Shown here: positions 18,413 through 30,558 of the stretch, in pieces | Numbering within the stretch: position 1 is the first letter of the stretch | Layout of the letters: each line of letters begins with the position of its first letter | Assembly (NCBI GenBank): GCA_017558505.1 | Contig: JAFYUM010000011.1 | Location: forward strand, 13,439-77,438 | Source: Ruminococcus sp. | Lineage (GTDB): Bacteria; Bacillota; Clostridia; Oscillospirales; Ruminococcaceae | Reading direction: 5' to 3' | DNA length: 64,000 bases | The notes under the pieces: model-generated | The model's input: only the letters and a program-made list of their open reading frames with translations | Database searches by the model: none | What the model was told of the DNA's origin: nothing | Made by a program: the position numbers and the translations under genes

Positions 18413-19531
18413 TTATTGTTTCTGCATTTCATTGTACATGTTTTCAGCAAATATACCATAGCCACGGGTAGGATCAGCCACAAACACATGAGTTACCGCA
18501 CCGATAATGCGGTCATTCTGGATTATGGGGCTGCCGCTCATACCCTGTACTATACCGCCGGTTTCAGCAATAAGCTTTTCATCGGTTATGCGTATAATCA
18601 TATTCTTTGAAGGATCGTTGTTCCGGCAGTTTACTTCCTCGATACATACAGAGTACATCTGAGGAGCAGCTCCGTTTACTGTGGAAAGGATATATGCATC
18701 TCCTTCGGTTATATCTTCCGGATATCCAAGGCTGTACTCCTTCGGCTCCGAAAGACGGTCATATGCCGTTCTGCCAAAGGTTCCGAAAATTCCGCAGCTG
18801 TTATTTCCGGTAAGGCTTCCATATGAGGGAAGTCCTATGAACTGACCGTGTAAAGCTCCGGGAGTGCCTGACTTACCCTTCGATACGGAGGTTATTTTTA
18901 CAGGAACAGCCTCGCCGCTTTGCAGAGGTACAAGTTCACCTGTGTCGCAGTCGCAGACAGGATGACCAAGTCCCGAAAATTCTCCTGTTGCCTTATCGGA
19001 GAATGTCATTGTACCTATACCTGCAATGCTGTCACGTACCCACATGCCGCTGCGCCATATTTTTTCCTTTTCAGAAAAAACAGGAGATAAATCCGTGGTA
19101 ATCGGCGTACCCTCGCGGCGGATTTCAAGGGTAACGGTTTCACCACGGCTTTCTGCTATAATCCTGCTCAATTCCTTATTTGAGGTCAGCGGTGTATCAT
19201 TGGCGGAGATGATGATATCTCCTTTTTTAACTCCGGCGGCATCGGCGGGGCAGGATATGCCGTCAACCTTGCTGATGTCTGTAACCATAACGCCTTCCAT
19301 AAGAAGCTTTATTCCGAAAGGATAACCTCCGGCAATAAGCGTGGGAGGTTCTTTTCGGGCAGTTTCAGCAGATATTGCAGAGAAGCTGCCTGTAAATGAA
19401 ACGGAGGCTGTATTGAGTAAGGCTATATTCCGTGTGATGTTATAGCCTGTTACAGAGAATAATCCGAATAAAGCCGCAGATAATACAGCTGCGGAACATT
19501 TTTTGAAACAAATTTTCAACAGATTTTCCAA
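18413..19531 (-). CDS. spoIVB: SpoIVB-like S55 peptidase with PDZ domain (start may be TTG 19519)
   Basis: GGYPFGIKL, PDZ segment, WVRDSIAGIGTMTF, GLGHPV, GGIVQGMSGSPIIQ, GAVTHVF. Confidence 0.92.
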   Translation of the reverse strand: MENLLKICFKKCSAAVLSAALFGLFSVTGYNITRNIALLNTASVSFTGSFSAISAETARKEPPTLIAGGYPFGIKLLMEGVMVTDISKVDGISCPADAAGVKKGDIIISANDTPLTSNKELSRIIAESRGETVTLEIRREGTPITTDLSPVFSEKEKIWRSGMWVRDSIAGIGTMTFSDKATGEFSGLGHPVCDCDTGELVPLQSGEAVPVKITSVSKGKSGTPGALHGQFIGLPSYGSLTGNNSCGIFGTFGRTAYDRLSEPKEYSLGYPEDITEGDAYILSTVNGAAPQMYSVCIEEVNCRNNDPSKNMIIRITDEKLIAETGGIVQGMSGSPIIQNDRIIGAVTHVFVADPTRGYGIFAENMYNEMQKQ

Positions 19532-19643
19532 CTCCTTTCAGCCGATGTTTATAATGGAGATTTGTATCGGCTGAATTTATTATGTATAAAAAAAACTGAT
19601 GTATGAGTGAAAAATAATCTCAAATTAAAAAAAGAGGTAATAT

Positions 19644-20072
19644 ATGGAAAAAAACAAGAAAAAAGCGCTGTATATTGCATATATGATAATTATGGTCATT
19701 TTCACGGTGATTTATTCACTGATTATGGTATGTATGGCAGGTGCGGGATTGATATACAATGGCGACAGCTACGGCAGAGAGCTTGTAAACGTGGGAATAT
19801 GGCTTATTATATCAGGTGTACTTATGACTGCGGGCGCTGTTGTGTGCTTCTTTAAAAAGCGTATTTTCAGCATTGTATCGGCAGTTCTGACCATTGCAGG
19901 ACTTGCAGTATGTCTTATAATGCTATACATACTCTGTACACATGCAGACAGTGCAGGCTGGGCTGATAATTACACTATGGAGCCTGTCAGCCGAATGTAC
20001 AGAGAACGGTTATTGCCTGTTATAGCGCCTGCTGTAATGACGCTGGGAGTTGATTTCTTTAAATCAAGATAA
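19644..20072 (+). CDS. Hypothetical membrane protein (about 4 TM)
   Basis: Four hydrophobic segments; GAGG RBS. Confidence 0.7.
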   Translation: MEKNKKKALYIAYMIIMVIFTVIYSLIMVCMAGAGLIYNGDSYGRELVNVGIWLIISGVLMTAGAVVCFFKKRIFSIVSAVLTIAGLAVCLIMLYILCTHADSAGWADNYTMEPVSRMYRERLLPVIAPAVMTLGVDFFKSR

Positions 20073-20173
20073 TTTGTATTAAAATTAAGAACCGAGCCTT
20101 TGGAGTAATAAGGCCCGGTTCTTTAAGGAGGTGGAGTATATAAAAATTGGAATTATCAGATAATAATTACGTC

Positions 20174-20206
20174 CGGCTTCGGGAATTGTCCCGAAGCCGC
20201 TTTTTT
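20174..20206. terminator. Terminator between convergent membrane-protein and SBP genes
   Basis: CGGCTTCGGGA-ATTG-TCCCGAAGCCG followed by T-run; a second hairpin lies near 20087-20124. Confidence 0.8.
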
Positions 20207-20383
20207 GTCGTTCCTGCTGTCGGATAAAATGTCATATAGTCTGTTATACAAGCTGTCGGAATTATGTCGCTTAATTATGTCACACAAAGATGTCTTACAG
20301 GGATGTCGCAAAAATTGCGTTATACAAAGGTGTTATACAAGCTGTCAGATAAAATGTCGTACAAGTTGTCACACAAAGGTGTC
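20206..20383. repeat. Array of 15 TGTC/TGTT-centred units at 11-14 nt spacing
   Basis: Cores at 20206, 20218, 20230, 20242, 20254, 20265, 20278, 20291, 20304, 20318 (CGTT), 20331, 20343, 20355, 20367, 20380. Confidence 0.85.
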
Positions 20384-20403
20384 TGTATAGAACTAACCCA
20401 ATA

Positions 20404-22827
20404 TCAGGACTGTTCGCTTATGAGAATAGATACGCGGTTCTGAATGATTTCCGCTGTCTGCTCGGCTGTTTTATCGCCTGCAAAATACGCTTCAGATTCC
20501 TCAGAAATTATATCGTAAATATCCTGGTTGTAGTAATAAGGTGTGGGCTTTGCATTGGAAATATAATCTGCAACAAAGTCTCTTTCCGCCTGTGTGAGCG
20601 GATTGATTTTAATTTCCTCGCCGCCGATATACCACGTATCATCATATTCCTGTTTCTTGCCGTCTGAGTCAGTATAATAGGGTCTTTCCATTGATTCGTC
20701 AAGTTTTTTGTCAAATGCGGATTTGAGTGCAGGTAAGTCATAAAGAGTCTCAGAATTCTGATTTTCCTCGCTGAATATTTCCTTGATGAAATCCCAGCAG
20801 GCGTCCTTGTAGTCGGAATTTTCCATAATAGCGAAAGCGGTTGAATGATAAATCATTGCACCTGTACCATTGATTGAGGGATTTCCTACAAGGGTTACAT
20901 CATCACCGATTTCGCCGTGTACAGCACGTGCATAATCTCTTGGATTGCTGATATAAATTTCGGAAAGGAGCGCCTTATCATTGCGGATAGCAACTTCGGA
21001 TTCCTCCCAGTAAGCATTCATTTCCTCGTTTGTAGCGTTTTCCCAGTCGATTTCGTCGCCTTCTCCTGCACTGGGATATTCGTTGCAGAATTCGAGAACT
21101 TTGATGAATTCCGGACTGTTAAAATTGCAGGTAGCATTGTTGTAGTCGATAAAATCGTTGCTGTTGTAAACGAAACGAGAGAAAATTTCGGTATTTGTAT
21201 TTCCTGTTTTAAATGGTTTCATTCCCTCCGGGAGATTGCGGCAGGTTTCAATGAATTCGTCAATTGTCCAGTTTTCCTTGTCAAAATACTTGCTCTTGCA
21301 TCCAAGAGTACTGATATAGAAAGATGAGGCGAGAGATGTAAGCTTTCCTTCTGTTTCGCATACGGAGAGGATGGTAGGAACGAAATCGTCTTTTGAAAGC
21401 TCCTCGTCCTTTTCAAGATAGTCGTAGAAGTCAACAAGTGCGCCCTTTCTTGAAAGGTTGCTTAAAAGAGAAGAATATGATGAGCCCATACAGATGATGT
21501 CAACGTCTTTTCCTGCTGCAATATCCTGTTTCAGCTGCTTTTCAGGGGAGTTTGTCTGCTTTTCGCTTTCTTCATCCCATTCATAATATTGGTTGTAATC
21601 CTCAACCTTTATACGATATTCGCCGTTTGTCTTGTTGAATTCCTTTATCATTTCGATAACGCTCTGGTCGCTGTACTCCATAACCATATTGATGATCTGT
21701 ACATTTTCAATTTCGGAGGAGTCACGCTTTGTAAGGCGGTAGACGCTTGTTTCACCGGTTGACCAGTTATTCTCTACCATAAGGAAATCGCCGCCATCAA
21801 CGGGAATAAGTCCGGTGACATAGTCGCTTGAAAGATCGGAATCAATCCAGTTGATAAGCTCAACAAGAGTGCCGTCGTCCATTAATCCGTAAAGGGAAGT
21901 GGAGCCTGAAAGGAAGGCACGATACTCGCCTGAACCTTTTATAATATAGTTGAAATAAGATGTATCTTCAAGGGTGACAGAATCGGGCGAAAGCTCCATT
22001 GTATCGGCATTCAGTGTTTTTAATACATTGTCATCTCCGTCGTAGGATAAATAAACAAAGTTATTGTCTCTGTCTGTTCCGTAGGGATAGAAGTATTCGT
22101 CATCACCAAAATCAAGAGGCTCAGATAAGTTGCCTTCTGCATCAACGGTAACATATGTCGATTTTTGTGAACCGCTTATAGCTAAGCATACATTGTCGTT
22201 TCCCAGCGCAAAGCATTCGCCGACGTAAATCTGACCTTCAATGAAATCGTCATCTGCGTATTTTTCAAGTCCTGTAATAGGATTTTCAGTTATAATATTT
22301 CCTGCTTCGTCAAGGGTATAAATTGAATAGGTAGTTGTTGCTGCTTCTTCCATTGCCTCATAATCGAAGTTTTCATAGTCGAAATCGGGGTCGTTGTAGT
22401 CGGGCATTTCAAAATCGCCGTAGTCTGTAATCGTAACAACAGCAAAGATTTTTCCGCTGTTTGTTACAACATATTTCATATCAGGAAAAACGCTGTCAGA
22501 CGCATCAAGTCCAAGGTCAATCTCCTCGAATACAGAGAAATCATAGTCGGTAATAAACGCCTTGGGTTTATACTGGTCGTTCTCGGTTGCATAGCCTGAA
22601 ATGAGTATTTTTCCTGTATCGCCTATAGGGGTTATTGAATTGAGTTCGGTAATAGGAAGCTCTGCTTCGATTTCAATAGCCTTATAGGATTTTTCCATCA
22701 TTTCCTGTACCTGAGAGGAATTATTGGCTTTGTTTCCGTTTGGATCTTTCACGGGACCGCATGCTGCTGTTGAAAGCATACAAGTCATAGCCATAATACC
22801 TGCAAGAATTTTCTTTAATCTGTTCAT
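20404..22827 (-). CDS. Large (807 aa) lipoprotein, extracellular solute-binding protein family 1 with N-terminal extension
   Basis: Lipobox STAAC; C-terminal SBP motifs IKEFNKTNGEYRIKVEDY, LVDFYDYLEKD, EESEAYFAGDKTAEQTAEIIQNRV. Confidence 0.8.
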   Translation of the reverse strand: MNRLKKILAGIMAMTCMLSTAACGPVKDPNGNKANNSSQVQEMMEKSYKAIEIEAELPITELNSITPIGDTGKILISGYATENDQYKPKAFITDYDFSVFEEIDLGLDASDSVFPDMKYVVTNSGKIFAVVTITDYGDFEMPDYNDPDFDYENFDYEAMEEAATTTYSIYTLDEAGNIITENPITGLEKYADDDFIEGQIYVGECFALGNDNVCLAISGSQKSTYVTVDAEGNLSEPLDFGDDEYFYPYGTDRDNNFVYLSYDGDDNVLKTLNADTMELSPDSVTLEDTSYFNYIIKGSGEYRAFLSGSTSLYGLMDDGTLVELINWIDSDLSSDYVTGLIPVDGGDFLMVENNWSTGETSVYRLTKRDSSEIENVQIINMVMEYSDQSVIEMIKEFNKTNGEYRIKVEDYNQYYEWDEESEKQTNSPEKQLKQDIAAGKDVDIICMGSSYSSLLSNLSRKGALVDFYDYLEKDEELSKDDFVPTILSVCETEGKLTSLASSFYISTLGCKSKYFDKENWTIDEFIETCRNLPEGMKPFKTGNTNTEIFSRFVYNSNDFIDYNNATCNFNSPEFIKVLEFCNEYPSAGEGDEIDWENATNEEMNAYWEESEVAIRNDKALLSEIYISNPRDYARAVHGEIGDDVTLVGNPSINGTGAMIYHSTAFAIMENSDYKDACWDFIKEIFSEENQNSETLYDLPALKSAFDKKLDESMERPYYTDSDGKKQEYDDTWYIGGEEIKINPLTQAERDFVADYISNAKPTPYYYNQDIYDIISEESEAYFAGDKTAEQTAEIIQNRVSILISEQS

Positions 22828-22910
22828 TTTATCTTTCTCCTTTATAGAATAGATGTTTTATCGTTTTTGTCTTCTGAAAAAATACAAAATAAGATATAGG
22901 CTCGGAATTA

Positions 22911-22992
22911 TGTCACACATTTATGTCGCAAAATTATGTCAGGCAAAGATGTTGCACACGGTTGTCACGGTATAATGTCCTGCAATGATGTC
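22911..22992. repeat. Array of 7 TGTC/TGTT units at exact 13-nt period
   Basis: Cores at 22911, 22924, 22937, 22950, 22963, 22976, 22989. Confidence 0.85.
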
Positions 22993-23012
22993 TGTACAGA
23001 ATCAACCTGTTA

Positions 23013-25421
23013 TCAGGATTGTTCGCTTAAAAGTGCTGAAACACGATTCTGGAGGGCTTTTGCTGTTTTATCGGCTGTCTTACTGCCTGCAAAATATGCC
23101 TCAACTTCTTCAAGGATTACGTTGTTGATATCTTCATTGTAATAGAAAGGTACAGGCTTTGCATTGCGGATATAATCCTCAATGTAATCTCTTTCCTGTT
23201 TTGTAAGGGGAGAAACTATTATTTCCTTGCCGCTGAGATAGTATATATCCTCATATTCGACCTTGTTGCCGCTTTCGTCAGTATAATACGGATTTTCCAT
23301 AGTTTCATCAAGCTTCTTTTCAAATGCCGATGTGATTACTGGGAAATCGTAAATGTCTTCAGAGGACTGATGTTCCTCGCTGAATATTTCACTGATAAAC
23401 TCCCAGCAGGTATCCTTACAGTCAGAGCTTTCCATAATAGCGTAAGAATCTGAAAACTGAATCCGTGCTCCTGAACCATCAGATGTGGGATTTCCTACAA
23501 GGGTTATTTCATCGCCGAATTCCGCCTGTACAGCACGTACATATGCTCTTGCTGTGTCAAGGGTGATTTCGGAAAGGAGAGCCTTATCGTTGCGGACAGC
23601 AACTATAGATTCAGCCCAGTAGGCATTTGCTTCGTCTTCTGTAGCGGTATTTACATCAATTTCTCCCCCTTCTCCTGCGTTGTAGTATTCGTTGCAGAAT
23701 TCAAGGACTTTTATGAAATCGGGAGAGTCAAAATTGCAGGCAGAATTGTTAAAGTCAACAAAGTCATTGCTGCTGTAGATAAGGTGTGAGAAAATGTCGG
23801 TTTTGGTATTTCCGAGTTTGAATGGCTTCATTCCTTCGGGAAGATTGCGGCAGGTTTCTATAAACTCATCAACAGTCCAGTTTTCCTTGTCGAAATACTT
23901 ACTCTTGCAGGCAAGAGTGCTGATATAGAAGCTGGGGGGGAGCATTGTAAGTTTTCCGTTGTTTTCACATGTTGAAAAGATCATGGGGACAAAATCGTCT
24001 CTTGTCAGCTCGTCGTCCTTATCAATAAATTCATAGAGGTCTGCCAGCTTGCCGTTTTTTGAAAGGGTACTGAGGGCAGATGAACTGCCTGACACGTATA
24101 TAATGTCCACATCCTTACCTGCTTCGATATCCTGTCCGAGCTGCTTATCTGCGGTGTTCAGCAGTTTATTAGTTTCTTTATCCACTACGTTGTATTGGTT
24201 GTAATCTTCTACCTTTATACGGTATTCATCATTTGCTCTGTTGAAGTCTTTTACTTTTTCAAGAATTCTCTGGTCGCTGTATTCCATAACCATATTGATA
24301 ATCTGCAGATTTTCAATTTCGGATGTGTCACGCTTTGTAAGGCGGAATACAGTTGTTTTTTTGGTTGACTGGTTATTTTCGATTACGATGAAATCTCCGT
24401 TTTCGACGGGGGTTATTCCTGCAATAAAGCTGCCTGTAATGTCGCAGTCGAACCAGTTGATAACTTCGGTCATGGTACCGTCGTCTTTTATGCCGTAAAG
24501 TGCTGCGGTGCCTGAAAGGTATAAGCGGTAATCATCTTCGCCCTTCAGGATACTGCTGTAATGGGAGGTATTATCAAGGGTGATGAAATCAGGTGAAATT
24601 TCCAGTGTATCACCGTTCATTGTCTTCAGAAAACGTCCTGAATCCTCGTATGCCACATAGGCAAGATTGTTGTCTCTGTCTGTGCCGTAGGGTGATAAGG
24701 CTTTACTCATGCCGAAAGTTACAGGATCGGAAAGATTTCCGTCAGCGTCTGCTGTGACGTATATCTGTCTGCTTGTACCACGGATTGACAGGCATACCTT
24801 GTCTTTGCCGAGGGCAAAACAATCATTTAAGGCAACCTGTTCGCCTTCGAATACGCTGTTTCTGTATTCATCAATTCCTGTAAGGGTATTCTTTGATGTA
24901 ACCTTTCCTTTTTCGTCAAAAGTGTATATTGTGTGGATTTTGTTTGCTGCCGCATACAGTGCTTCGTAGTTGACGTTTTCAGAGTTGAAATCGGGTAATA
25001 CCAGGTTGCTGTGGTCTACAACAGTAACAACAGCAAATATCTTACCGCTGCTTGTTACTGCAAATTTTACTTCAGGCATAAAAAGGTCATATTCGCCCAG
25101 TTCAAGATCTATTTCACGGAAGTCTGAAAATTCAGAATCTGTGATGTATGCATGCGGAAAATACTGGTTGTTTCTGAGGGCATAGCCGGAAATTAGAATA
25201 TTCCCTGTATCGCCGATAGATATAATGTTTTGAATTTCACTAAATGGGAGATTTGCTTCTATTTCAACAGACTTGTAAAATATGTCGGTTTTTTCCTGAA
25301 TAGGTGAGGGCTGCTGTTCAGTTTTGATTTCACTGATTTTCTTTGACTCAAAACAGGATACGGTTGAAATCATGCAGGCCATTGCCATAGTGCCTGCGAG
25401 CATTCTTTTAAACTTGTTCAT
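23013..25421 (-). CDS. Large (802 aa) lipoprotein SBP, tandem paralogue of 20404-22827
   Basis: Lipobox STVSC; long shared blocks such as FRLTKRDTSEIENLQIINMVMEYSDQ and CKSKYFDKENWT. Confidence 0.8.
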   Translation of the reverse strand: MNKFKRMLAGTMAMACMISTVSCFESKKISEIKTEQQPSPIQEKTDIFYKSVEIEANLPFSEIQNIISIGDTGNILISGYALRNNQYFPHAYITDSEFSDFREIDLELGEYDLFMPEVKFAVTSSGKIFAVVTVVDHSNLVLPDFNSENVNYEALYAAANKIHTIYTFDEKGKVTSKNTLTGIDEYRNSVFEGEQVALNDCFALGKDKVCLSIRGTSRQIYVTADADGNLSDPVTFGMSKALSPYGTDRDNNLAYVAYEDSGRFLKTMNGDTLEISPDFITLDNTSHYSSILKGEDDYRLYLSGTAALYGIKDDGTMTEVINWFDCDITGSFIAGITPVENGDFIVIENNQSTKKTTVFRLTKRDTSEIENLQIINMVMEYSDQRILEKVKDFNRANDEYRIKVEDYNQYNVVDKETNKLLNTADKQLGQDIEAGKDVDIIYVSGSSSALSTLSKNGKLADLYEFIDKDDELTRDDFVPMIFSTCENNGKLTMLPPSFYISTLACKSKYFDKENWTVDEFIETCRNLPEGMKPFKLGNTKTDIFSHLIYSSNDFVDFNNSACNFDSPDFIKVLEFCNEYYNAGEGGEIDVNTATEDEANAYWAESIVAVRNDKALLSEITLDTARAYVRAVQAEFGDEITLVGNPTSDGSGARIQFSDSYAIMESSDCKDTCWEFISEIFSEEHQSSEDIYDFPVITSAFEKKLDETMENPYYTDESGNKVEYEDIYYLSGKEIIVSPLTKQERDYIEDYIRNAKPVPFYYNEDINNVILEEVEAYFAGSKTADKTAKALQNRVSALLSEQS

Positions 25422-25439: not shown

Positions 25440-26543
25440 CTAATGCTTTGAATCTTTCTGTTCCTTTAATATACTCCGTTTGTAGAGTACCTTTGTTACA
25501 CTGTCACTTAAATTTTCTGTAATTTTTTTTCGCAGTCTGCCTCCTGCACGCCAGCCTGTGACGATAAGGAGCAATAATGTCAGGATAGGAATGATATATG
25601 TAAACCTGCGGAAATAGTAAATTCCCGAAAGCTTAAACTCGGTTATACGTGATGCATTTTCCCAGTATGGGTAAATAACAGGCTTGTCGGCTATTGCGTA
25701 ATCTGATAGATTTTTATACTTTTTTGCAAGCACTGTGGGATTGAACCGCTTCGTATTGTTTACAACAGAGCTTGTATAGCTGTAGCTGCCGCCGAAATAG
25801 TCGTTAATTGCATTGTAGGCAAAATTTTCAACGGGATCCGGAACAATACATTCATAACAGGTGATATTGTTGAGGGGATTGCCACTCTCCTCTGCAAATT
25901 CTCCGTTTATGAGTTCAAGTCCCTCGTAGGAGATATATGCTCTTGAAATATCTCCGCTTGTACGTTTTTCCTGCTCTGTGGATGGAGTGTCAATAACTCC
26001 GGATATATAGAACTTAACGCCGTTGAGGTAGATATTCATGCCTGCAATATCCTCGGAGCCGTAAAGCTCCCATGCAAGAACTTTGTCAATAACAGCACCG
26101 TCCTGCATTAAGTCGTTTTCAGAGAAGTATGAGCCATCAAGAAGTCTGAAATCACGGAACAGAAAGAAATCTCCCCCCACCGCTGTAACCATAGCTTCGG
26201 AACGGGCTGTTCTGTCGCAGCGTACAGACATCTGACCGGCATTATTACTGTATGCTTCCGGGATGAGCTTTTGTCCCTCCTCAGCAATAATTCCTGCATT
26301 TTTCAGCTTATCCGTCAGCGTTTGCTTTACATATGGGACTGAATGGGTGTTAAATCCTGCTTCTTCTGTGAAAAAACAGCTTAGCTGTGTGTAGCCACCC
26401 TCGGAATCCCAGCGTTGAGCCGCATAGTTGCTGCTCTGGGATTTTGCAAGTGAACTGCCGACAGCCGTCAGGACAAGTCCAGTGCCGACAGAAAGCAAAT
26501 TTGCGGCTGCAAGGGCGGCAATTAAAACCTTTTTGATTTTCAT
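25440..26543 (-). CDS. MacB-like periplasmic-core membrane protein (2 TM)
   Basis: N-terminal TM; DFFLFRDFRLLDGSYF...AVIDKVLAWELYG...FYISGVI core; single C-terminal TM. Confidence 0.7.
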   Translation of the reverse strand: MKIKKVLIAALAAANLLSVGTGLVLTAVGSSLAKSQSSNYAAQRWDSEGGYTQLSCFFTEEAGFNTHSVPYVKQTLTDKLKNAGIIAEEGQKLIPEAYSNNAGQMSVRCDRTARSEAMVTAVGGDFFLFRDFRLLDGSYFSENDLMQDGAVIDKVLAWELYGSEDIAGMNIYLNGVKFYISGVIDTPSTEQEKRTSGDISRAYISYEGLELINGEFAEESGNPLNNITCYECIVPDPVENFAYNAINDYFGGSYSYTSSVVNNTKRFNPTVLAKKYKNLSDYAIADKPVIYPYWENASRITEFKLSGIYYFRRFTYIIPILTLLLLIVTGWRAGGRLRKKITENLSDSVTKVLYKRSILKEQKDSKH

Positions 26544-26555
26544 CAGCCCACCGCC

Positions 26556-28328
26556 TTATTCATCTTTCATACGAACCTGATCACCGGGCTTGACTGGAAG
26601 GCTTGAGGCAATAATAACATAGTCGCCATAATTTATGCTTCCGTTTACTGCGCTTGAAACTTCATCAGAGCATATTACTTCAACGGGTACACGCTGTGCA
26701 TAGTAGCGGTTGCCCAGAGGTGAATTCTTGGATTGTACAGTCAGTACGAATGAGCCTTTGTTATCAGTGTATACGGCACTTTTCGGGATGATTGTATCAT
26801 AGTTTCCGCTGCCGAGAGGAATGGAGAGGTCAAGATTCGTGTTGGATTCCACATCGCCTGTTACAGAGAATACAAGTATACGGCTCTTGGAGTTTGGCGT
26901 TGTGTCGTTTTTGATGTTGGTGAGAACAGCCTGAACATTTCCGCTCCAGTTGTTAAGTACCTCGGCTTCAACGCCTTTTTTGATTTTTCTTGTTTTTTCG
27001 CCGTCAACTGTTATTTCAACTGTATAACCCTCGGAGGAAATGTCAATTGTGATAATTTCCATATCGGGATATGTTTCATCTCCTGCCTTGGCGTTTACAG
27101 AGCTTACAATTCCGCTGTGTTTAGCTGTAATTTCAGTTGTTTCGTTTTCCTTTTTAAGCTTTTCAACCTTTGCCTTTGCCTTTTCGATATTATTTTTCAT
27201 GGAGGTAAGATTAAGGCTTTCAAGTTTATCCTGTGCTGCATTGTCTTTCTGTGCCTTGTCAAGCTGTGCGATAAGGTCTTCAAGGGCACGCTGTTTTGCC
27301 TTCACGTCCTCGTTGAGCATTTCAAGAGACATTCCCTCGCCGATCATGCCGGATTCATATTCTTCAATAAGGGCTGTGTAGTATTCGATATTGCTTTCTG
27401 TATCTGTAAGCTGTGCTGAGTATTCGTTCCGCAGCTCGTCTTTTTTTGTATCGTATGCGTCTGCAGCGGCATTACGTGCAGTTTCAGCTTCTTCCATAGC
27501 TGTTTTGGCAGCTGAAAGTGTTTCCTGTGAAACTACAGTCGGAACAGTTGTTTCTTCTTCTGTATTATTTTCACCTGAAAGCATTGCTGTGTATATTGAA
27601 AGCTTTTCCTGATATGTTTTTTCAGCGTCATCAAGTTCGGATTTCAGATTTATGAGCTCCCCTGTGTATTCGGCAGGAGCAGTTGAATAATCGTCCATAT
27701 CGATGGCAGATATAATAGCAGAAAGCTTTGTCCGGAGCTTTGTGCAGCTGTTAAGCTGCGACTTGTTTTCTTTGTAAGCGGATTTTTCAGCTTCCGCATT
27801 ATCCTGATTATCAATGGCATCATCTCTTTTGCTGATAGCCTCTGCAAGATCCTCACGGGCGTGCTTGATAGCCTGATTTTCAGAACTGTAATCAGCGCCG
27901 GGTGAAAGAAGTGCCTTGTTATATTCAAGTTCAAGTGTTTCAAGAGCTTCAATGGCTGCGTTGAGTTCCTCGCTTTCTCCTGTGCCTACAGTCATAAGCA
28001 CATCGCCCTTTTCAACTTCCTTGCCTACTTTTACATTTATAGTATCAATAATCTTGTTTCCGTCAACAGTAACACTGTAAGACTGATTTGACATCACCAT
28101 ACCGCTTCCACGTAGTCTTTCCGTAAGTTTTCCGCTGGTGGTGCGTTCTGTGGTAATCTGCGGGAGTGATCTGTTCATAATGGTGTTTGAGAAAAAGAGA
28201 AGAATTAGAAGTACTGCAAGGAAAATAATAAGAATTGTTTTTATAATTTCACGTTTGCGTCTGGGATTGTATTCTTCTTTATCTCCTTTTATATCCTTGA
28301 CATCTTTGATTTCTTTTATTTCAGCCAT
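26556..28328 (-). CDS. Membrane-fusion/periplasmic adaptor-like protein with very long coiled coil
   Basis: N-terminal TM; split lipoyl-like motifs VKVGKEVEKGDVL and AKHSGIVSSVNAKAGD flanking about 280 aa of coiled coil; AAAGGA RBS before 28328. Confidence 0.75.
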   Translation of the reverse strand: MAEIKEIKDVKDIKGDKEEYNPRRKREIIKTILIIFLAVLLILLFFSNTIMNRSLPQITTERTTSGKLTERLRGSGMVMSNQSYSVTVDGNKIIDTINVKVGKEVEKGDVLMTVGTGESEELNAAIEALETLELEYNKALLSPGADYSSENQAIKHAREDLAEAISKRDDAIDNQDNAEAEKSAYKENKSQLNSCTKLRTKLSAIISAIDMDDYSTAPAEYTGELINLKSELDDAEKTYQEKLSIYTAMLSGENNTEEETTVPTVVSQETLSAAKTAMEEAETARNAAADAYDTKKDELRNEYSAQLTDTESNIEYYTALIEEYESGMIGEGMSLEMLNEDVKAKQRALEDLIAQLDKAQKDNAAQDKLESLNLTSMKNNIEKAKAKVEKLKKENETTEITAKHSGIVSSVNAKAGDETYPDMEIITIDISSEGYTVEITVDGEKTRKIKKGVEAEVLNNWSGNVQAVLTNIKNDTTPNSKSRILVFSVTGDVESNTNLDLSIPLGSGNYDTIIPKSAVYTDNKGSFVLTVQSKNSPLGNRYYAQRVPVEVICSDEVSSAVNGSINYGDYVIIASSLPVKPGDQVRMKDE

Positions 28329-28419
28329 TATATTTAATCCTTTCTCAGAACTTGTCTTAAAGTTTCCCACTCATATACATTCGTATGAGGCAGGGGAAAC
28401 TGGACATATTTTTTTAATT

Positions 28420-29310
28420 TTAACCCTTGATACCGCCTGAATAGGTGATACCCTCAAGGAGATAGTCCTCGCCATAGAGGAACATAAGTATTGTGGGAAC
28501 CATATATACCGTACCTACCGCAAAGGCAAGTCCGATATCGCCTGTATTAATCTGTGACAGGAATACCGAAAGCGGGTGCATATAAGCGTCCTTCATAAGA
28601 ATAAGGGGTTGTTCCACCATATTCCAGTAGTCGATAAATACAAGCATGGCAATTGATACAATAGCACCCTTGCACAGTGGAACGTGGATTTTTGTCAGTA
28701 TCTGAAATTCGCTTGCTCCGTCAAGCTTTGCAGCTTCTACATATGAAGCAGGTATACGCTTCATAACCTTGCTTAACAGAAATACACTGAAAGGGGAAAA
28801 TATACCCGGAAGGATAATTGCCCAGCGTGTATTGAGAATGTTGAATTTTTCTGCTACAAGAAAGTTTGGTACAAGTGTTACCTGATAGGGCATTATCATA
28901 AGTATAATATACGTGAAGAAAATTATATTTTTGAATTTGTTCGGGTAACGTGAAAAGCCATAGGATGTAATTATTGCAAGAAGCATCTGGAATACAGTAA
29001 TCGGAACGGTCAGGAGTATTGAGTTCCAGAATTTCATCAGATAATCGGGATTTTTCAGCAATACATTTTTGTACTGGTCGAAAGTTACCTTGTCAGGGAT
29101 GAATTTGAGGTTTACGCTGTCGGATATGTATGTCTTTTTGTCCTCGGTCATATTTTCCAGCATTGCACCGTAGTTTGCGGAAATTTCCGTTGATGTCATA
29201 AAGGAATTTGCAATTGTAAGCACCGTGGGCATCAGAAATAGGAAAGCTGCAGTAACTGCGAATATCAGAACGAAAGTGTTGAGAATTTTTTCCTTTTTTC
29301 GCTTGTTCAT
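28420..29310 (-). CDS. Carbohydrate (CUT1) ABC permease, MalG-like
   Basis: FWNSILLT, TSYGFSR, IPASYVEAAKLDGAS EAA loop, FIDYWN. Confidence 0.9.
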   Translation of the reverse strand: MNKRKKEKILNTFVLIFAVTAAFLFLMPTVLTIANSFMTSTEISANYGAMLENMTEDKKTYISDSVNLKFIPDKVTFDQYKNVLLKNPDYLMKFWNSILLTVPITVFQMLLAIITSYGFSRYPNKFKNIIFFTYIILMIMPYQVTLVPNFLVAEKFNILNTRWAIILPGIFSPFSVFLLSKVMKRIPASYVEAAKLDGASEFQILTKIHVPLCKGAIVSIAMLVFIDYWNMVEQPLILMKDAYMHPLSVFLSQINTGDIGLAFAVGTVYMVPTILMFLYGEDYLLEGITYSGGIKG

Positions 29311-30191
29311 TATTCCACATCCTTTCCTAAATGATTTTCAATGGCAAGGAGAATGGCAACAATCACAATCATAATAAGTGAGAAAAGCACAGCCGCCGAT
29401 GACAGTTTCTGATAGTCCAGACTGTTGAAGGTGTTGTTCATGAAGTGCTGGAGCATATACATTTTATCGTAGGGATAATCACCTGTAAGGAGATAGACCT
29501 CACGGAAAATCTTGAATGAGTTGATAAGTGAGAGTATCAGCACGAAAAGGATTGTGGGGGAAAGATATCTCAATTTGATATGTACAAACTGATACCAGCC
29601 GCTTGCTCCCTCCAGTTTTGCAACCTCGATAATATCACGGGGAATAGAGGCAAGGGCAGACATAAAGAGTATCATATTATAACCCATGTTTTTCCACAGG
29701 AACATCACTATAATGATAGTTTGTCCGTGAGAGGATTTCATCCAGTCGATAGATCCTCCGCCGAATGTTTCGATAATCTGATTGAGAGTTCCGTTTGTAT
29801 GGAAAAGAACCTGCCATACAAGTACAACTGAGGCGGTGGGAACCATGAGCGGACTGAGAAAAAATGTTCTCACAACACTTTTTCCGGGAATGTCCCTTTC
29901 AAGAAGAACTGCCATCCATAGCGAAAGAATAACAGCAAGAGGAACCGATATAAGCGAAAATGAGGCTGTATTTGCAGCGGCTTTCCTGAATGCTATAGTT
30001 TCCATCAGCCTTTTATAGTTTTCAAGTCCTACGAAATCATGTATAATGGGATTGTTGATTACAGAGTAGTAAACAACAATGCCGAATGGTATCAGAAAAA
30101 ATATCAGAACGCCGATAAGACTTGGCATAACACATATATTGCTGAATATGCGCTCGCCCCTTCGGCCGCACTGGTCTTTTCGTTTTTTCAA
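29310..30191 (-). CDS. Carbohydrate (CUT1) ABC permease, MalF-like
   Basis: FVGLENY, RTFFLSP, WKNMGYNMILF, EVAKLEGAS EAA loop; TTG at 30191 lies 9 nt after AAGGAG. Confidence 0.9.
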   Translation of the reverse strand: MKKRKDQCGRRGERIFSNICVMPSLIGVLIFFLIPFGIVVYYSVINNPIIHDFVGLENYKRLMETIAFRKAAANTASFSLISVPLAVILSLWMAVLLERDIPGKSVVRTFFLSPLMVPTASVVLVWQVLFHTNGTLNQIIETFGGGSIDWMKSSHGQTIIIVMFLWKNMGYNMILFMSALASIPRDIIEVAKLEGASGWYQFVHIKLRYLSPTILFVLILSLINSFKIFREVYLLTGDYPYDKMYMLQHFMNNTFNSLDYQKLSSAAVLFSLIMIVIVAILLAIENHLGKDVE

Positions 30192-30558
30192 ATTAAACAA
30201 CTCCTTTTATGTACAGGGGAACCCACTTTTTCTCTTTAAATATCCCTCTATATATAAGTGTCTTAAAAAGCCAAAAAAAACAAAGACTTGATAAATTTTT
30301 ATTTTTTAATCAAAGCTGTATTGCCGGCTGGTTGTTGAAAATGAAAAAACGGAAATTTAAAAAACAGGGATTTGCCAGTTTATAGCTGTTTTTTACATCG
30401 GGTTTTCTTCCGGTATAAAGCTTGATCGGGTAATACTATTACGAGATGAAAATAAAACCTTATATATTATAGTGGTGGTTTTGTTAACTGCGGTTTACAA
30501 ATGCAAACTTTCTTTTCACAAATCGTACTACATATAATAATACGGTTGTTACAATATC

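What the first reader, a model, noticed from the sequence alone, without database searches (positions are those of the whole stretch)
20206..20383. Unexplained periodic TGTC (GACA on the transcribed strand) array in the 3' region of SBP gene 1
Seen: 15 consecutive units with a fixed 4-nt core and variable 7-10 nt spacers fill the whole gap between the stop codon and the terminator. Spacers vary, so it is not a simple satellite. It is too short-spaced for CRISPR, and 13-nt units break any frame. Inference: a binding platform for an oligomeric RNA- or DNA-binding protein (TRAP-like logic) or an RNase-processing array.
Basis: partly seen in the sequence, partly recalled or inferred. Interest (0 to 1): 0.62.

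Follow-up and report, generated by a model that had tools for sequence, protein, structure and literature searches.

The report
Periodic GACA array in mRNA tails
A rumen Ruminococcus carries, just after the stop codons of two transporter binding-protein genes, real and conserved runs of the 4-letter word GACA repeated every 12-13 bases. About 14 related species have the same kind of run, always on the mRNA strand behind genes for exported proteins. It is most likely an undescribed multi-site RNA docking platform, but its partner is unknown.

Summary
Window 20206-20383 has 12 exact and 3 degenerate TGTC cores (GACA on the SBP mRNA strand) spaced 11-13 nt, against 0.7 cores expected by chance. 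A second array lies at 22911-22992 after the paralogous SBP gene. They are the only two such arrays in the 2.47 Mb genome.

The same kind of array occurs in about 14 of 162 species of this Ruminococcus genus and in none of 400 other genomes of the order. There are five unrelated loci: SBPs, a dockerin-LRR protein, a dockerin-serpin, a dockerin-bearing putative anti-sigma protein and a pilus sortase. In all five, GACA is on the sense strand and starts 5-24 nt after the stop codon in four of them, about 100-280 nt after it in the fifth. The array ends at a hairpin or at the next gene's ribosome-binding site.

Two spacer families, one U-rich and one A-rich, share only the (U/A)GACA(U) core and the 13-nt period. 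Middle units turn over quickly between strains, while the array ends are conserved.

Rho, TRAP and HutP are absent from the genus. RNase Y and an EndoA-type MazF are in every genome tested. There is no Rfam match, no dispersed copies and no coding potential.

My best reading, at about 0.4, is an unstructured multivalent 3'-UTR RNA platform, with RNase Y as the most concrete candidate reader. The function is not shown, and no RNA-seq data could be consulted.

The parts
20404..22827 (-). SBP gene 1 (807 aa), the last gene of the minus-strand ABC-type operon. Its stop codon TGA is at 20404-20406.
   Evidence: ORF list. Pfam SBP_bac_1 and SBP_bac_8.
20384..20403 (-). Conserved 20-nt linker (5' module) between the stop codon and the first core. 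On the mRNA it reads UAUUGGGUUAGUUCUAUACA.
   Evidence: Almost identical in all clade-A orthologues (..TGATAACAGGTTAGTTCTATAC..) although the SBP proteins are only 53-97% identical.
20206..20383 (-). Array 1: 15 units of GACA plus a 7-9 nt spacer on the mRNA strand (12 exact cores, 3 degenerate), period 11-13 nt.
   Evidence: The sense RNA is less structured than shuffles (z +1.9) and is mostly unpaired in the centroid fold.
20174..20206 (+). Hairpin CGGCTTCGGG-AATT-GTCCCGAAGCCG followed by CTTTTTTG on the + strand. It is an intrinsic terminator for transcription running against the SBP gene. On the mRNA strand it is an A-tract plus a stable hairpin that closes the array.
   Evidence: Terminator scan and fold. 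It is conserved at the far end of every terminal SBP array in clade A.
20125..20149 (-). Conserved motif CAAUUUUUAUAUACUCCACCUCCUU on the mRNA. It resembles the 3' end of 16S rRNA (anti-Shine-Dalgarno-like). It is not part of the array; it marks the ancestral 3' UTR.
   Evidence: Present in at least 20 orthologous loci, including those without arrays. Unique in the genome.
20087..20123 (-). Hairpin followed by AAUUUUAAU on the minus strand: the probable terminator of the SBP operon.
   Evidence: Equivalent hairpins with U-tracts follow the motif in orthologues.
22911..22992 (-). Array 2: 7 units (6 exact TGTC cores plus TGTT at 22950) between the SBP2 stop codon (23013-23015) and the SBP1 ribosome-binding site. 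A lone extra core lies at 22868.
   Evidence: It is identical in strains whose terminal array differs.
23013..25421 (-). SBP gene 2 (802 aa), a paralogue of SBP1 (59% identity).

Best explanation
The array is a cis-acting RNA element in the 3' untranslated or intercistronic part of mRNAs for exported proteins. It is a largely unstructured track that presents the word (U/A)GACA(U) every 12-13 nt, 6 to about 20 times.

One GACA carries no information in this genome. The track can therefore only work through avidity, by binding several copies or subunits of a single-strand RNA-binding factor side by side.

The most concrete candidate is the membrane-anchored, KH-domain endoribonuclease RNase Y. 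Published work shows it prefers G|A in AU-rich, unstructured RNA upstream of a hairpin, and that it meets mRNAs at the membrane. Docking or cutting in the track would detach the protective 3' hairpin, or separate the cistrons, and so set the half-life and relative dosage of these mRNAs.

Shown here: the array's reality, strand specificity, placement, conservation pattern and lack of predicted structure. Inferred: that it acts as RNA, that a protein reads it, and which protein.
For: - Significance: 12 cores against 0.68 expected, and only two arrays in the genome.
- Conservation: arrays are present at the orthologous SBP locus in clade A. These are G029, G105, G117, G125, G161, G104, G114, G144 and G146, plus strains with 70-97% SBP identity.
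- Four further unrelated loci have arrays: dockerin-LRR (G146), dockerin-serpin and a dockerin-bearing putative anti-sigma protein (G122, G164 and three rumen metagenome contigs), and a pilus sortase (G149, G027).
- In all five loci GACA is on the sense strand of the upstream gene. The array starts 5-24 nt after the stop codon in four loci. Terminal arrays end at a hairpin or terminator, internal ones at the next ribosome-binding site. No array lies in a divergent promoter region.
- All the upstream genes encode exported or surface proteins.
- The two unit families differ in spacer make-up (U-rich GACAKYUUNNUNU versus A-rich GACAUCAYGNANA) but share core and period. GACA is the most frequent 4-mer and the most frequent 4-mer recurring at +12/13 in both.
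- The sense RNA folds less well than shuffles in 14 of 17 arrays (z about +1 to +3.5). Two others are near zero and one, whose stretch ran on into the terminal hairpin, is clearly negative. The antisense strand shows no such trend.
- GACA is frequent in coding sequence (7,833 copies, observed/expected 0.85), so specificity needs multivalency.
- An antisense-facing terminator is conserved just outside the terminal arrays, which would keep the track single-stranded.
- RNase Y is encoded in 10 of 10 genomes tested. Its published preference is G|A, U at -2/-3, AU-rich, low structure and a downstream stem (PMC4608709; bioRxiv 10.1101/2023.03.12.532304). This fits the U-rich family.
Against: - Transcription, 3' ends and cleavage are all unobserved.
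- No partner protein co-varies with the arrays. RNase Y and MazF are in every genome of the genus tested, with or without arrays.
- Each genome has only 1-3 arrays, and most orthologous loci in the genus do without one, so the element is dispensable.
- In closely related strains, substitutions that destroy the core are about as frequent as spacer substitutions (about 5 of 60 versus about 14 of 130 columns). Whole units are gained and lost at 97% protein identity.
- RNase Y's known consensus does not explain why ACA after the G is kept, and the A-rich family lacks U at -2/-3.
Confidence: 0.4

Rival explanations
1. The array is a slippage-born 13-nt minisatellite with little or no sequence-specific function. 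A 13-nt segment of the 3' UTR was amplified by replication slippage or unequal exchange and persists because 3' UTRs tolerate it. At most it acts as a spacer.
For: - Units are duplicated, lost and reshuffled between strains whose SBP is 97% identical, and copy number ranges from 9 to 17.
- There is higher-order 26/39-nt repetition.
- In near relatives, core substitutions occur at about the spacer rate.
- Arrays are absent from most orthologous loci and most species.
- 13-bp satellites containing TGTC are common across bacteria.
- Several outgroup 3' UTRs carry a single GACATCT(T/A)CAATTT that could have seeded an array.
Against: - About 85-92% of units keep all four core letters, while other positions match their consensus at 40-85%.
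- Two spacer families with different composition share only the core and the period.
- Five unrelated loci all have the sense orientation, sit behind a stop codon and follow genes for exported proteins.
- The array ends and the flanking non-coding modules are more conserved than the adjacent protein.
- The satellites found elsewhere are near-perfect repeats, unlike these.
Confidence: 0.25
2. The array is read as double-stranded DNA. It would be an iteron-like track of direct repeats coated by a DNA-binding protein, as in TubR-tubC, ParR-parC, omega-heptad or winged-helix response-regulator sites. It would act as a transcription roadblock or insulator behind highly expressed genes, or as an upstream operator for the next paralogue.
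For: - Direct repeats with a 12-13 bp period resemble the 12-bp tubC iterons, and TGTCA with A-rich spacers resembles Pho-box half-sites (from my own knowledge, not tested here).
- About half of the arrays lie upstream of a co-directional gene.
- Direct repeats are polar on DNA as well, so orientation alone does not exclude DNA.
Against: - Many arrays are terminal, with no downstream gene on that strand: single-SBP loci, the sortase locus, the anti-sigma locus and the serpin locus in L209.
- None lies in a divergent promoter region.
- A 13-bp period is out of phase with the DNA helix.
- No DNA-binding protein gene travels with the arrays. The neighbours differ at each locus, and the conserved 142-aa neighbour is a membrane protein also present where there is no array.
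- The reduced-structure signal is specific to the sense RNA.
Confidence: 0.15
3. The array is a loading track for the hexameric terminator Rho. Rho binds about 13 nt of RNA per subunit and reads YC dinucleotides. On the strand opposite the SBP gene the array reads UGUC every 13 nt in C>G, A-rich RNA, so it would stop antisense transcription.
For: The 13-nt period equals the classical Rho site size per monomer (from my own knowledge). In the clade-A arrays shown, the antisense strand carries a UC at each core and reads C>G and A-rich.
Against: The Rho RNA-binding domain (PF07497) is absent from 32 of 32 genomes of the genus, with or without arrays, while the control genomes score. Internal arrays face no convergent promoter.
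Confidence: 0.01
4. The array is a repeat RNA of a defence or addiction system: a miniature CRISPR-like array or a type III antitoxin (ToxI-like) precursor.
For: Tandem short repeats with variable segments lie next to a hairpin or terminator.
Against: The units are 13 nt, whereas CRISPR units (repeat plus spacer) are around 60 nt or more and ToxI repeats are about 36 nt. No cas or toxin gene is adjacent; the neighbours are SBP, serpin, sortase and GH11 genes. There is no Rfam CRISPR or antitoxin match. The 'spacers' recur as a few unit types.
Confidence: 0.02

Closest known systems
TRAP binding site in the Bacillus subtilis trp leader (11 (G/U)AG triplets read by the 11-mer TRAP ring)
   Same: A very short core repeated at a fixed short period with free spacers in single-stranded RNA. 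Specificity comes only from multivalency.
   Different: The core is GACA, not (G/U)AG. The period is 12-13 nt, not 5-6. The location is the 3' UTR or intercistronic region, not the 5' leader. There are up to about 20 units. No TRAP homologue exists in the genus.
CsrB/RsmZ-type protein-sponge RNAs (many GGA motifs that titrate CsrA)
   Same: Many copies of a degenerate short motif in one RNA, with rapid turnover of copy number between species.
   Different: The motif is not GGA. It is not displayed in hairpin loops but in unstructured RNA. The spacing is strictly periodic. The array is embedded in mRNA 3' ends rather than in a separate sRNA gene.
RNase Y cleavage/entry sites of Firmicutes (G|A in AU-rich unstructured RNA, stem-loop downstream; cggR-gapA, saePQRS)
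   Same: Each unit offers U-U-G|A-C-A-U in low-structure, AU-rich RNA with a stable hairpin downstream. The targets are mRNAs translated at the membrane, where RNase Y sits. RNase Y is encoded in the genomes tested.
   Different: Known sites are single and weakly defined. No tandem array of sites has been described in the papers I read. The conservation of ACA is not explained. Cleavage was not tested.
Modular or tandem intergenic repeats of unknown function: pneumococcal BOX (boxA-(boxB)n-boxC), cyanobacterial STRR heptamers, TAACTGA direct repeats of Beggiatoaceae, Cyanobacteria and Bacteroidetes (PMC4679880)
   Same: A lineage-restricted, transcribed, strand-biased repeat array with conserved ends and a variable number of middle units. 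A post-transcriptional role is suspected but no reader is known.
   Different: Those elements are dispersed in tens to hundreds of copies and their units are contiguous and near-identical. Here there are 1-3 arrays per genome, no dispersed copies of the flanks, only 4-5 conserved letters per 13-nt unit, and a position behind stop codons.
Centromere-like iteron arrays such as tubC (12-bp repeats bound by TubR) or parC (11-bp repeats bound by ParR)
   Same: Direct repeats with an 11-13 bp period in runs of about 7-10 or more.
   Different: Those act as DNA, lie beside their partition genes on plasmids or phages, and are upstream of the operon. None of this holds here.

Membership tests
TRAP / trp-leader type attenuation site | TRAP (MtrB, Pfam TrpBP) encoded in the genome | tested here: not met
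   PF02081 is absent from 35 of 35 genomes of the genus, and the B. subtilis control is positive.
TRAP / trp-leader type attenuation site | 9-11 (G/U)AG triplets separated by 2-3 nt in a 5' leader | tested here: not met
   The core is GACA, the spacers are 7-9 nt and the location is 3' of the stop codon.
HutP-type antiterminator site | HutP encoded; UAG triplets with 4-nt spacers | tested here: not met
   PF09021 is absent; there is one sub-threshold hit in 35 genomes. The motif is different.
Rho utilisation (rut) site | Rho factor present | tested here: not met
   PF07497 is absent from 32 of 32 genomes, with positive controls.
RNase Y substrate site | RNase Y encoded | tested here: met
   RNase_Y_N is found in 10 of 10 genomes, including G000.
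RNase Y substrate site | G|A in AU-rich, weakly structured RNA with a downstream stem-loop | tested here: met
   Unit logos, fold z-scores and the hairpin after terminal arrays. The preference is taken from PMC4608709 and bioRxiv 10.1101/2023.03.12.532304. The fit is better for the U-rich family than for the A-rich one.
RNase Y substrate site | RNase Y-dependent cleavage in vivo or in vitro | not testable with these tools
CsrB/RsmZ-type sponge | Multiple A(N)GGA motifs, mostly in hairpin loops | tested here: not met
   The repeated word is GACA, and the array is predicted to be unstructured.
CRISPR array | Repeats of 23-50 nt with unique spacers of similar size; cas genes or a leader nearby | tested here: not met
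   The units are 13 nt, the spacers recur as a few types, there are no cas neighbours and there is no Rfam CRISPR hit over threshold.
Type III toxin-antitoxin (ToxI-like RNA repeats) | About 34-45-nt repeats followed by a terminator and a toxin endoribonuclease gene | tested here: not met
   The unit is 13 nt (39-nt higher order only in part). The downstream genes are SBP or serpin genes, or a convergent membrane-protein or GH11 gene.
Simple minisatellite (VNTR) | Head-to-tail units whose copy number varies between strains | tested here: met
   There are 9-17 units, with gains and losses at 91-97% SBP identity.
Simple minisatellite (VNTR) | Divergence spread evenly over the unit | tested here: not met
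   The four adjacent core positions are kept in about 85-92% of units, while other positions match at 40-85%. The same core occurs in two spacer families. In very close strains the core and spacer rates are similar, so the constraint is weak per unit.
Dispersed repeat / MITE (BOX, REP, ERIC type) | Many dispersed copies with shared end modules | tested here: not met
   The flank modules and terminal units have no other copy in G000. There are 1-3 arrays per genome.
Iteron / centromere array (tubC, parC) | Adjacent gene for the cognate DNA-binding protein; position upstream of its operon | tested here: not met
   The neighbours differ at every locus and include no DNA-binding protein, apart from an ECF sigma factor upstream of the preceding gene at one locus.

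The most novel reading that the evidence does not exclude
The GACA-every-13-nt track is a dedicated 3'-UTR code for mRNAs of exported proteins in a Rho-less genus. It would thereby set decay, cistron dosage or even 'torpedo'-type transcription termination, a bacterial counterpart of cleavage-dependent 3'-end formation.
Probability: 0.15. Interest if true: 0.8.

Novelty: new variant of a known kind. Interest (0 to 1): 0.5.

Why it matters
Bacterial 3' UTRs are only beginning to be recognised as regulatory. Very few RNA elements are known whose specificity rests purely on the periodic repetition of a 3-4-letter word; TRAP sites are the textbook case.

This element has a clean grammar: core, period, strand, position behind the stop codon and a closing hairpin. 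It evolves quickly but under constraint, and it is tied to genes for surface and cellulosome-associated proteins of fibre-degrading rumen bacteria. It could therefore point to a new RNA-binding reader, or to a new way of using RNase Y.

It is also directly testable with simple reporters and pull-downs. If it turns out to be a tolerated minisatellite, it is still a useful example of how such arrays can mimic function.

Tried and rejected
Nearly all are perfect 13-bp satellites in unrelated phyla, so it says nothing about distribution. A metagenome scan with the A-rich unit gave the same problem but did yield three real arrays.
2. A protein-guided metagenome scan with SBP1 found nothing.
3. Rfam gave no credible match in 19500-23500.
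4. The Rho loading-site idea was rejected because no Rho exists in the genus. TRAP and HutP are also absent.
5. MazF/EndoA as a reader: one core copy is present in every genome, with or without arrays. The published EndoA motif is UACAU(A), not GACAU, and GACA is common in coding sequence, so constitutive cutting at GACA is implausible.
6. The neighbouring 142-aa ORF (19644-20072) as a partner: it is a membrane protein that is also conserved next to array-less loci.
7. Coding potential: no reading frame through the arrays is conserved across genomes. The RBS-like motif on the opposite strand has no conserved ORF behind it.
8. A long-range stem enclosing the array, suggested by the fold of the G000 3' UTR, is not conserved. 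The relatives' last units differ, and their 5' module forms its own small hairpin CCUGAUAACAGG.
9. A mobile element or MITE: the flank modules have no other copies.
10. Promoter-like reading (TTGACA at unit joints): the scan finds no more promoter-like sites than in shuffles, and the A-rich family lacks TTGACA.
12. Literature searches for GACA/TGTC periodic repeats and for Ruminococcus 3'-UTR repeats found no description.

Full report
**What is there.** The minus strand of the window carries an operon: two ABC permeases (29310-30200 and 28420-29310), an HlyD-like adaptor (26556-28370), a MacB-core-like protein (25440-26543) and two paralogous 800-aa solute-binding proteins, SBP2 (23013-25421) and SBP1 (20404-22827).

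Directly after the SBP1 stop codon comes a 20-nt linker. It is followed by 15 units that read GACA plus 7-9 variable letters on the mRNA strand (TGTC on the + strand, 20206-20383). Twelve cores are exact. Three are degenerate but in register: TGTT, TGCG/CGTT and TGTT.

A shorter copy with 7 units (22911-22992) sits in the same position after SBP2 and in front of the SBP1 ribosome-binding site.

**Is it more than chance.** From the window's TGTC frequency, 0.68 cores are expected in 178 nt, and 12 are seen. The three-unit periodic pattern occurs 4 times in the window, only in these arrays, against 0.02 in shuffles. A chain search of the whole 2.47 Mb assembly finds only these two arrays, and none in shuffled genomes. 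TRF calls period 13 independently.

**Anatomy of the 3' region.** On the mRNA strand the order is:

1. The stop codon.
2. A conserved linker, UAUUGGGUUAGUUCUAUACA.
3. The array.
4. An A-tract plus the stable hairpin at 20174-20199.
5. About 25 nt of further sequence.
6. The motif CAAUUUUUAUAUACUCCACCUCCUU (20125-20149).
7. The hairpin at 20087-20123 followed by AAUUUUAAU.

The first hairpin has its T-tract on the opposite strand. It scores as a + strand terminator, so it would stop transcription coming from the convergent 142-aa gene before it enters the array. The second hairpin is the likelier terminator of the SBP mRNA. In the predicted ensemble the two hairpins form and the array stays mostly unpaired.

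**Relatives.** Named homologues and earlier notes place the organism in rumen Ruminococcus.

- In more distant orthologous SBP loci (52% identity or less) the stop codon is followed after about 20 nt by the same anti-SD-like motif and a terminator, with no array.
- In the closest clade (SpoIVB 71-79% identical to the window's, against 61% or less for the rest) every orthologous locus examined has arrays: G029, G105, G117, G125, G161, G104, G114, G144 and G146.
- G029 has three very regular arrays of 10-13 units after three tandem SBP genes.
- Strains with SBP1 homologues of 97, 96, 91, 83, 80 and 70% identity all have a terminal array of 9-14 units.

The array plus its closing hairpin therefore looks like an insertion or expansion between the stop codon and the ancestral 3'-UTR motif, at the base of this clade.

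**Independent loci.** A scan of all 162 genomes of the genus found further arrays in distant species (SpoIVB 49-54%):

- After a dockerin-serpin gene, and after a 795-aa dockerin-bearing protein that follows an ECF sigma factor, in G122 and G164.
- After the sortase of a pilin operon in G149 and G027.
- After a dockerin-LRR protein in G146.

Three rumen-type metagenome contigs repeat the serpin and anti-sigma contexts. There the array is followed by a clean sense-strand terminator. Four hundred other genomes of the order gave only two perfect satellites.

In all five loci GACA is on the sense strand of the upstream gene. In four of them the array begins 5-24 nt after the stop codon. No array lies between divergent genes. 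All the upstream genes encode exported or surface proteins.

**Unit grammar.** In the clade-A family the 13-nt unit is GACA-K-Y-U-U-N-N-U-N-U (U-rich). In the second family it is GACAUCAYGNANA (A-rich). Spacing is 13 nt in 56-65% of steps and 12 nt in 7-28%.

Without any segmentation, GACA is the commonest 4-mer in both families. It is also by about twofold the commonest 4-mer recurring at +12/13. About 85-92% of units keep all four core letters, while other positions match their consensus at 40-85%.

**Dynamics.**

- The ends of the terminal array are conserved across the clade. These are the linker, the last units (GACAUUUUAUCC, GACAGC.... and GACAAAAAAGCGG) and the hairpin.
- The middle units are duplicated, lost or replaced even between strains with 97% identical SBP1.
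- The internal SBP2-SBP1 array is identical in those same strains.
- In an alignment of six near-colinear arrays, substitutions that destroy a core (GACG, TACA) are about as frequent as spacer substitutions, about 5 of 60 against about 14 of 130 columns.

So each single unit is expendable and the constraint acts on the array as a whole.

**RNA or DNA.** Several observations favour RNA:

- The sense orientation is invariable.
- The arrays sit inside transcription units behind stop codons.
- Many arrays are terminal, with nothing downstream on that strand.
- The sense strand, but not the antisense strand, tends to fold less well than shuffles.
- An antisense-blocking terminator is conserved next to the terminal arrays.

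Favouring DNA, there is only the general resemblance to iteron arrays. No DNA-binding gene travels with the arrays.

**Who could read it.** GACA alone is common in this genome's mRNAs, with 7,833 copies in 1.7 Mb of long ORFs and an observed/expected ratio of 0.85. A reader must therefore depend on several sites at once.

- The 13-nt period suggested Rho, which binds about 13 nt per subunit. The genus has no Rho.
- TRAP and HutP are also absent.
- RNase Y and one EndoA-type MazF are present in every genome tested, with or without arrays.

Published mapping shows that RNase Y prefers to cut at G|A, with U at -2/-3, in AU-rich, weakly structured RNA with a stem-loop downstream. It is confined to the membrane (PMC4608709; bioRxiv 10.1101/2023.03.12.532304). 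The U-rich units (..U-U-G|A-C-A-U..), the closing hairpin and the exported-protein genes fit this. The kept ACA and the A-rich family are not explained by it. KH domains in general read about 4-nt words, and paired KH domains need spacers of about 10 nt or more (from my own knowledge), so a KH-type reader is plausible.

**Verdict.** The element is lineage-restricted, strand-specific and under array-level constraint, and it matches no catalogued RNA family and no paper I could find.

I rate the readings as follows:

- An RNA-level multivalent platform, with RNase Y as the first candidate: about 0.4.
- A tolerated minisatellite: about 0.25.
- A DNA-level array: about 0.15.

No expression data could be consulted, so function remains inferred.

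Noticed in passing
window 20125-20149 (mRNA strand: minus): The SBP operon's 3' UTR contains CAAUUUUUAUAUACUCCACCUCCUU, which includes a 9-nt copy of the 16S rRNA 3' end (CACCUCCUU, an anti-Shine-Dalgarno mimic), just upstream of the terminator hairpin. It is conserved at the nucleotide level in at least 20 orthologous loci of the genus, with or without arrays. It occurs only once in this genome and has no conserved ORF behind its RBS-like complement. It could pair with Shine-Dalgarno sequences of the same mRNA, as described for the S. aureus icaR 3' UTR (from my own knowledge).
   Followed up: partly
whole genus (32 genomes incl. G000): No Rho factor (the PF07497 RNA-binding domain) was detectable in any genome of this Ruminococcus genus, while the control genomes were positive.
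   Followed up: partly
L184:2907-5835, L213:170-3602, L190 (G122, G164, rumen metagenome): An ECF sigma factor gene overlaps the start of a 795-937-aa protein that carries a type I dockerin. This may be an anti-sigma factor plugged into the cellulosome. A GH11-dockerin xylanase gene lies convergent to it.
   Followed up: no
G000 whole genome: There is very strong avoidance of the 4-bp palindromes CTAG (observed/expected 0.06), CGCG, GGCC, CCGG, GCGC and GATC in both coding and 3' regions. This suggests pressure from several restriction systems.
   Followed up: no
L093:3090-3800 (Ekhidna sp., Bacteroidota): About 55 tandem 13-nt units alternate between GACACUCUUGUAA and GACACUCUUACUU. This is a GACA-initial 13-nt array in an unrelated phylum. 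It looks more satellite-like, with 9 conserved letters per unit, and its context was not examined.
   Followed up: no
G062:C23/C24, G016:C1, G162:C244: Long (GACA)n tetranucleotide microsatellites occur in three other species of the genus. They have no apparent relation to the 13-nt arrays.
   Followed up: no
window 20384-20403 and orthologues: In most clade-A relatives the stop codon lies inside a small hairpin, CCUG-AUAA-CAGG (UGA UAA tandem stops), followed by the invariant GUUAGUUCUAUA. This linker is more conserved than the SBP protein, and its role is unknown.
   Followed up: partly
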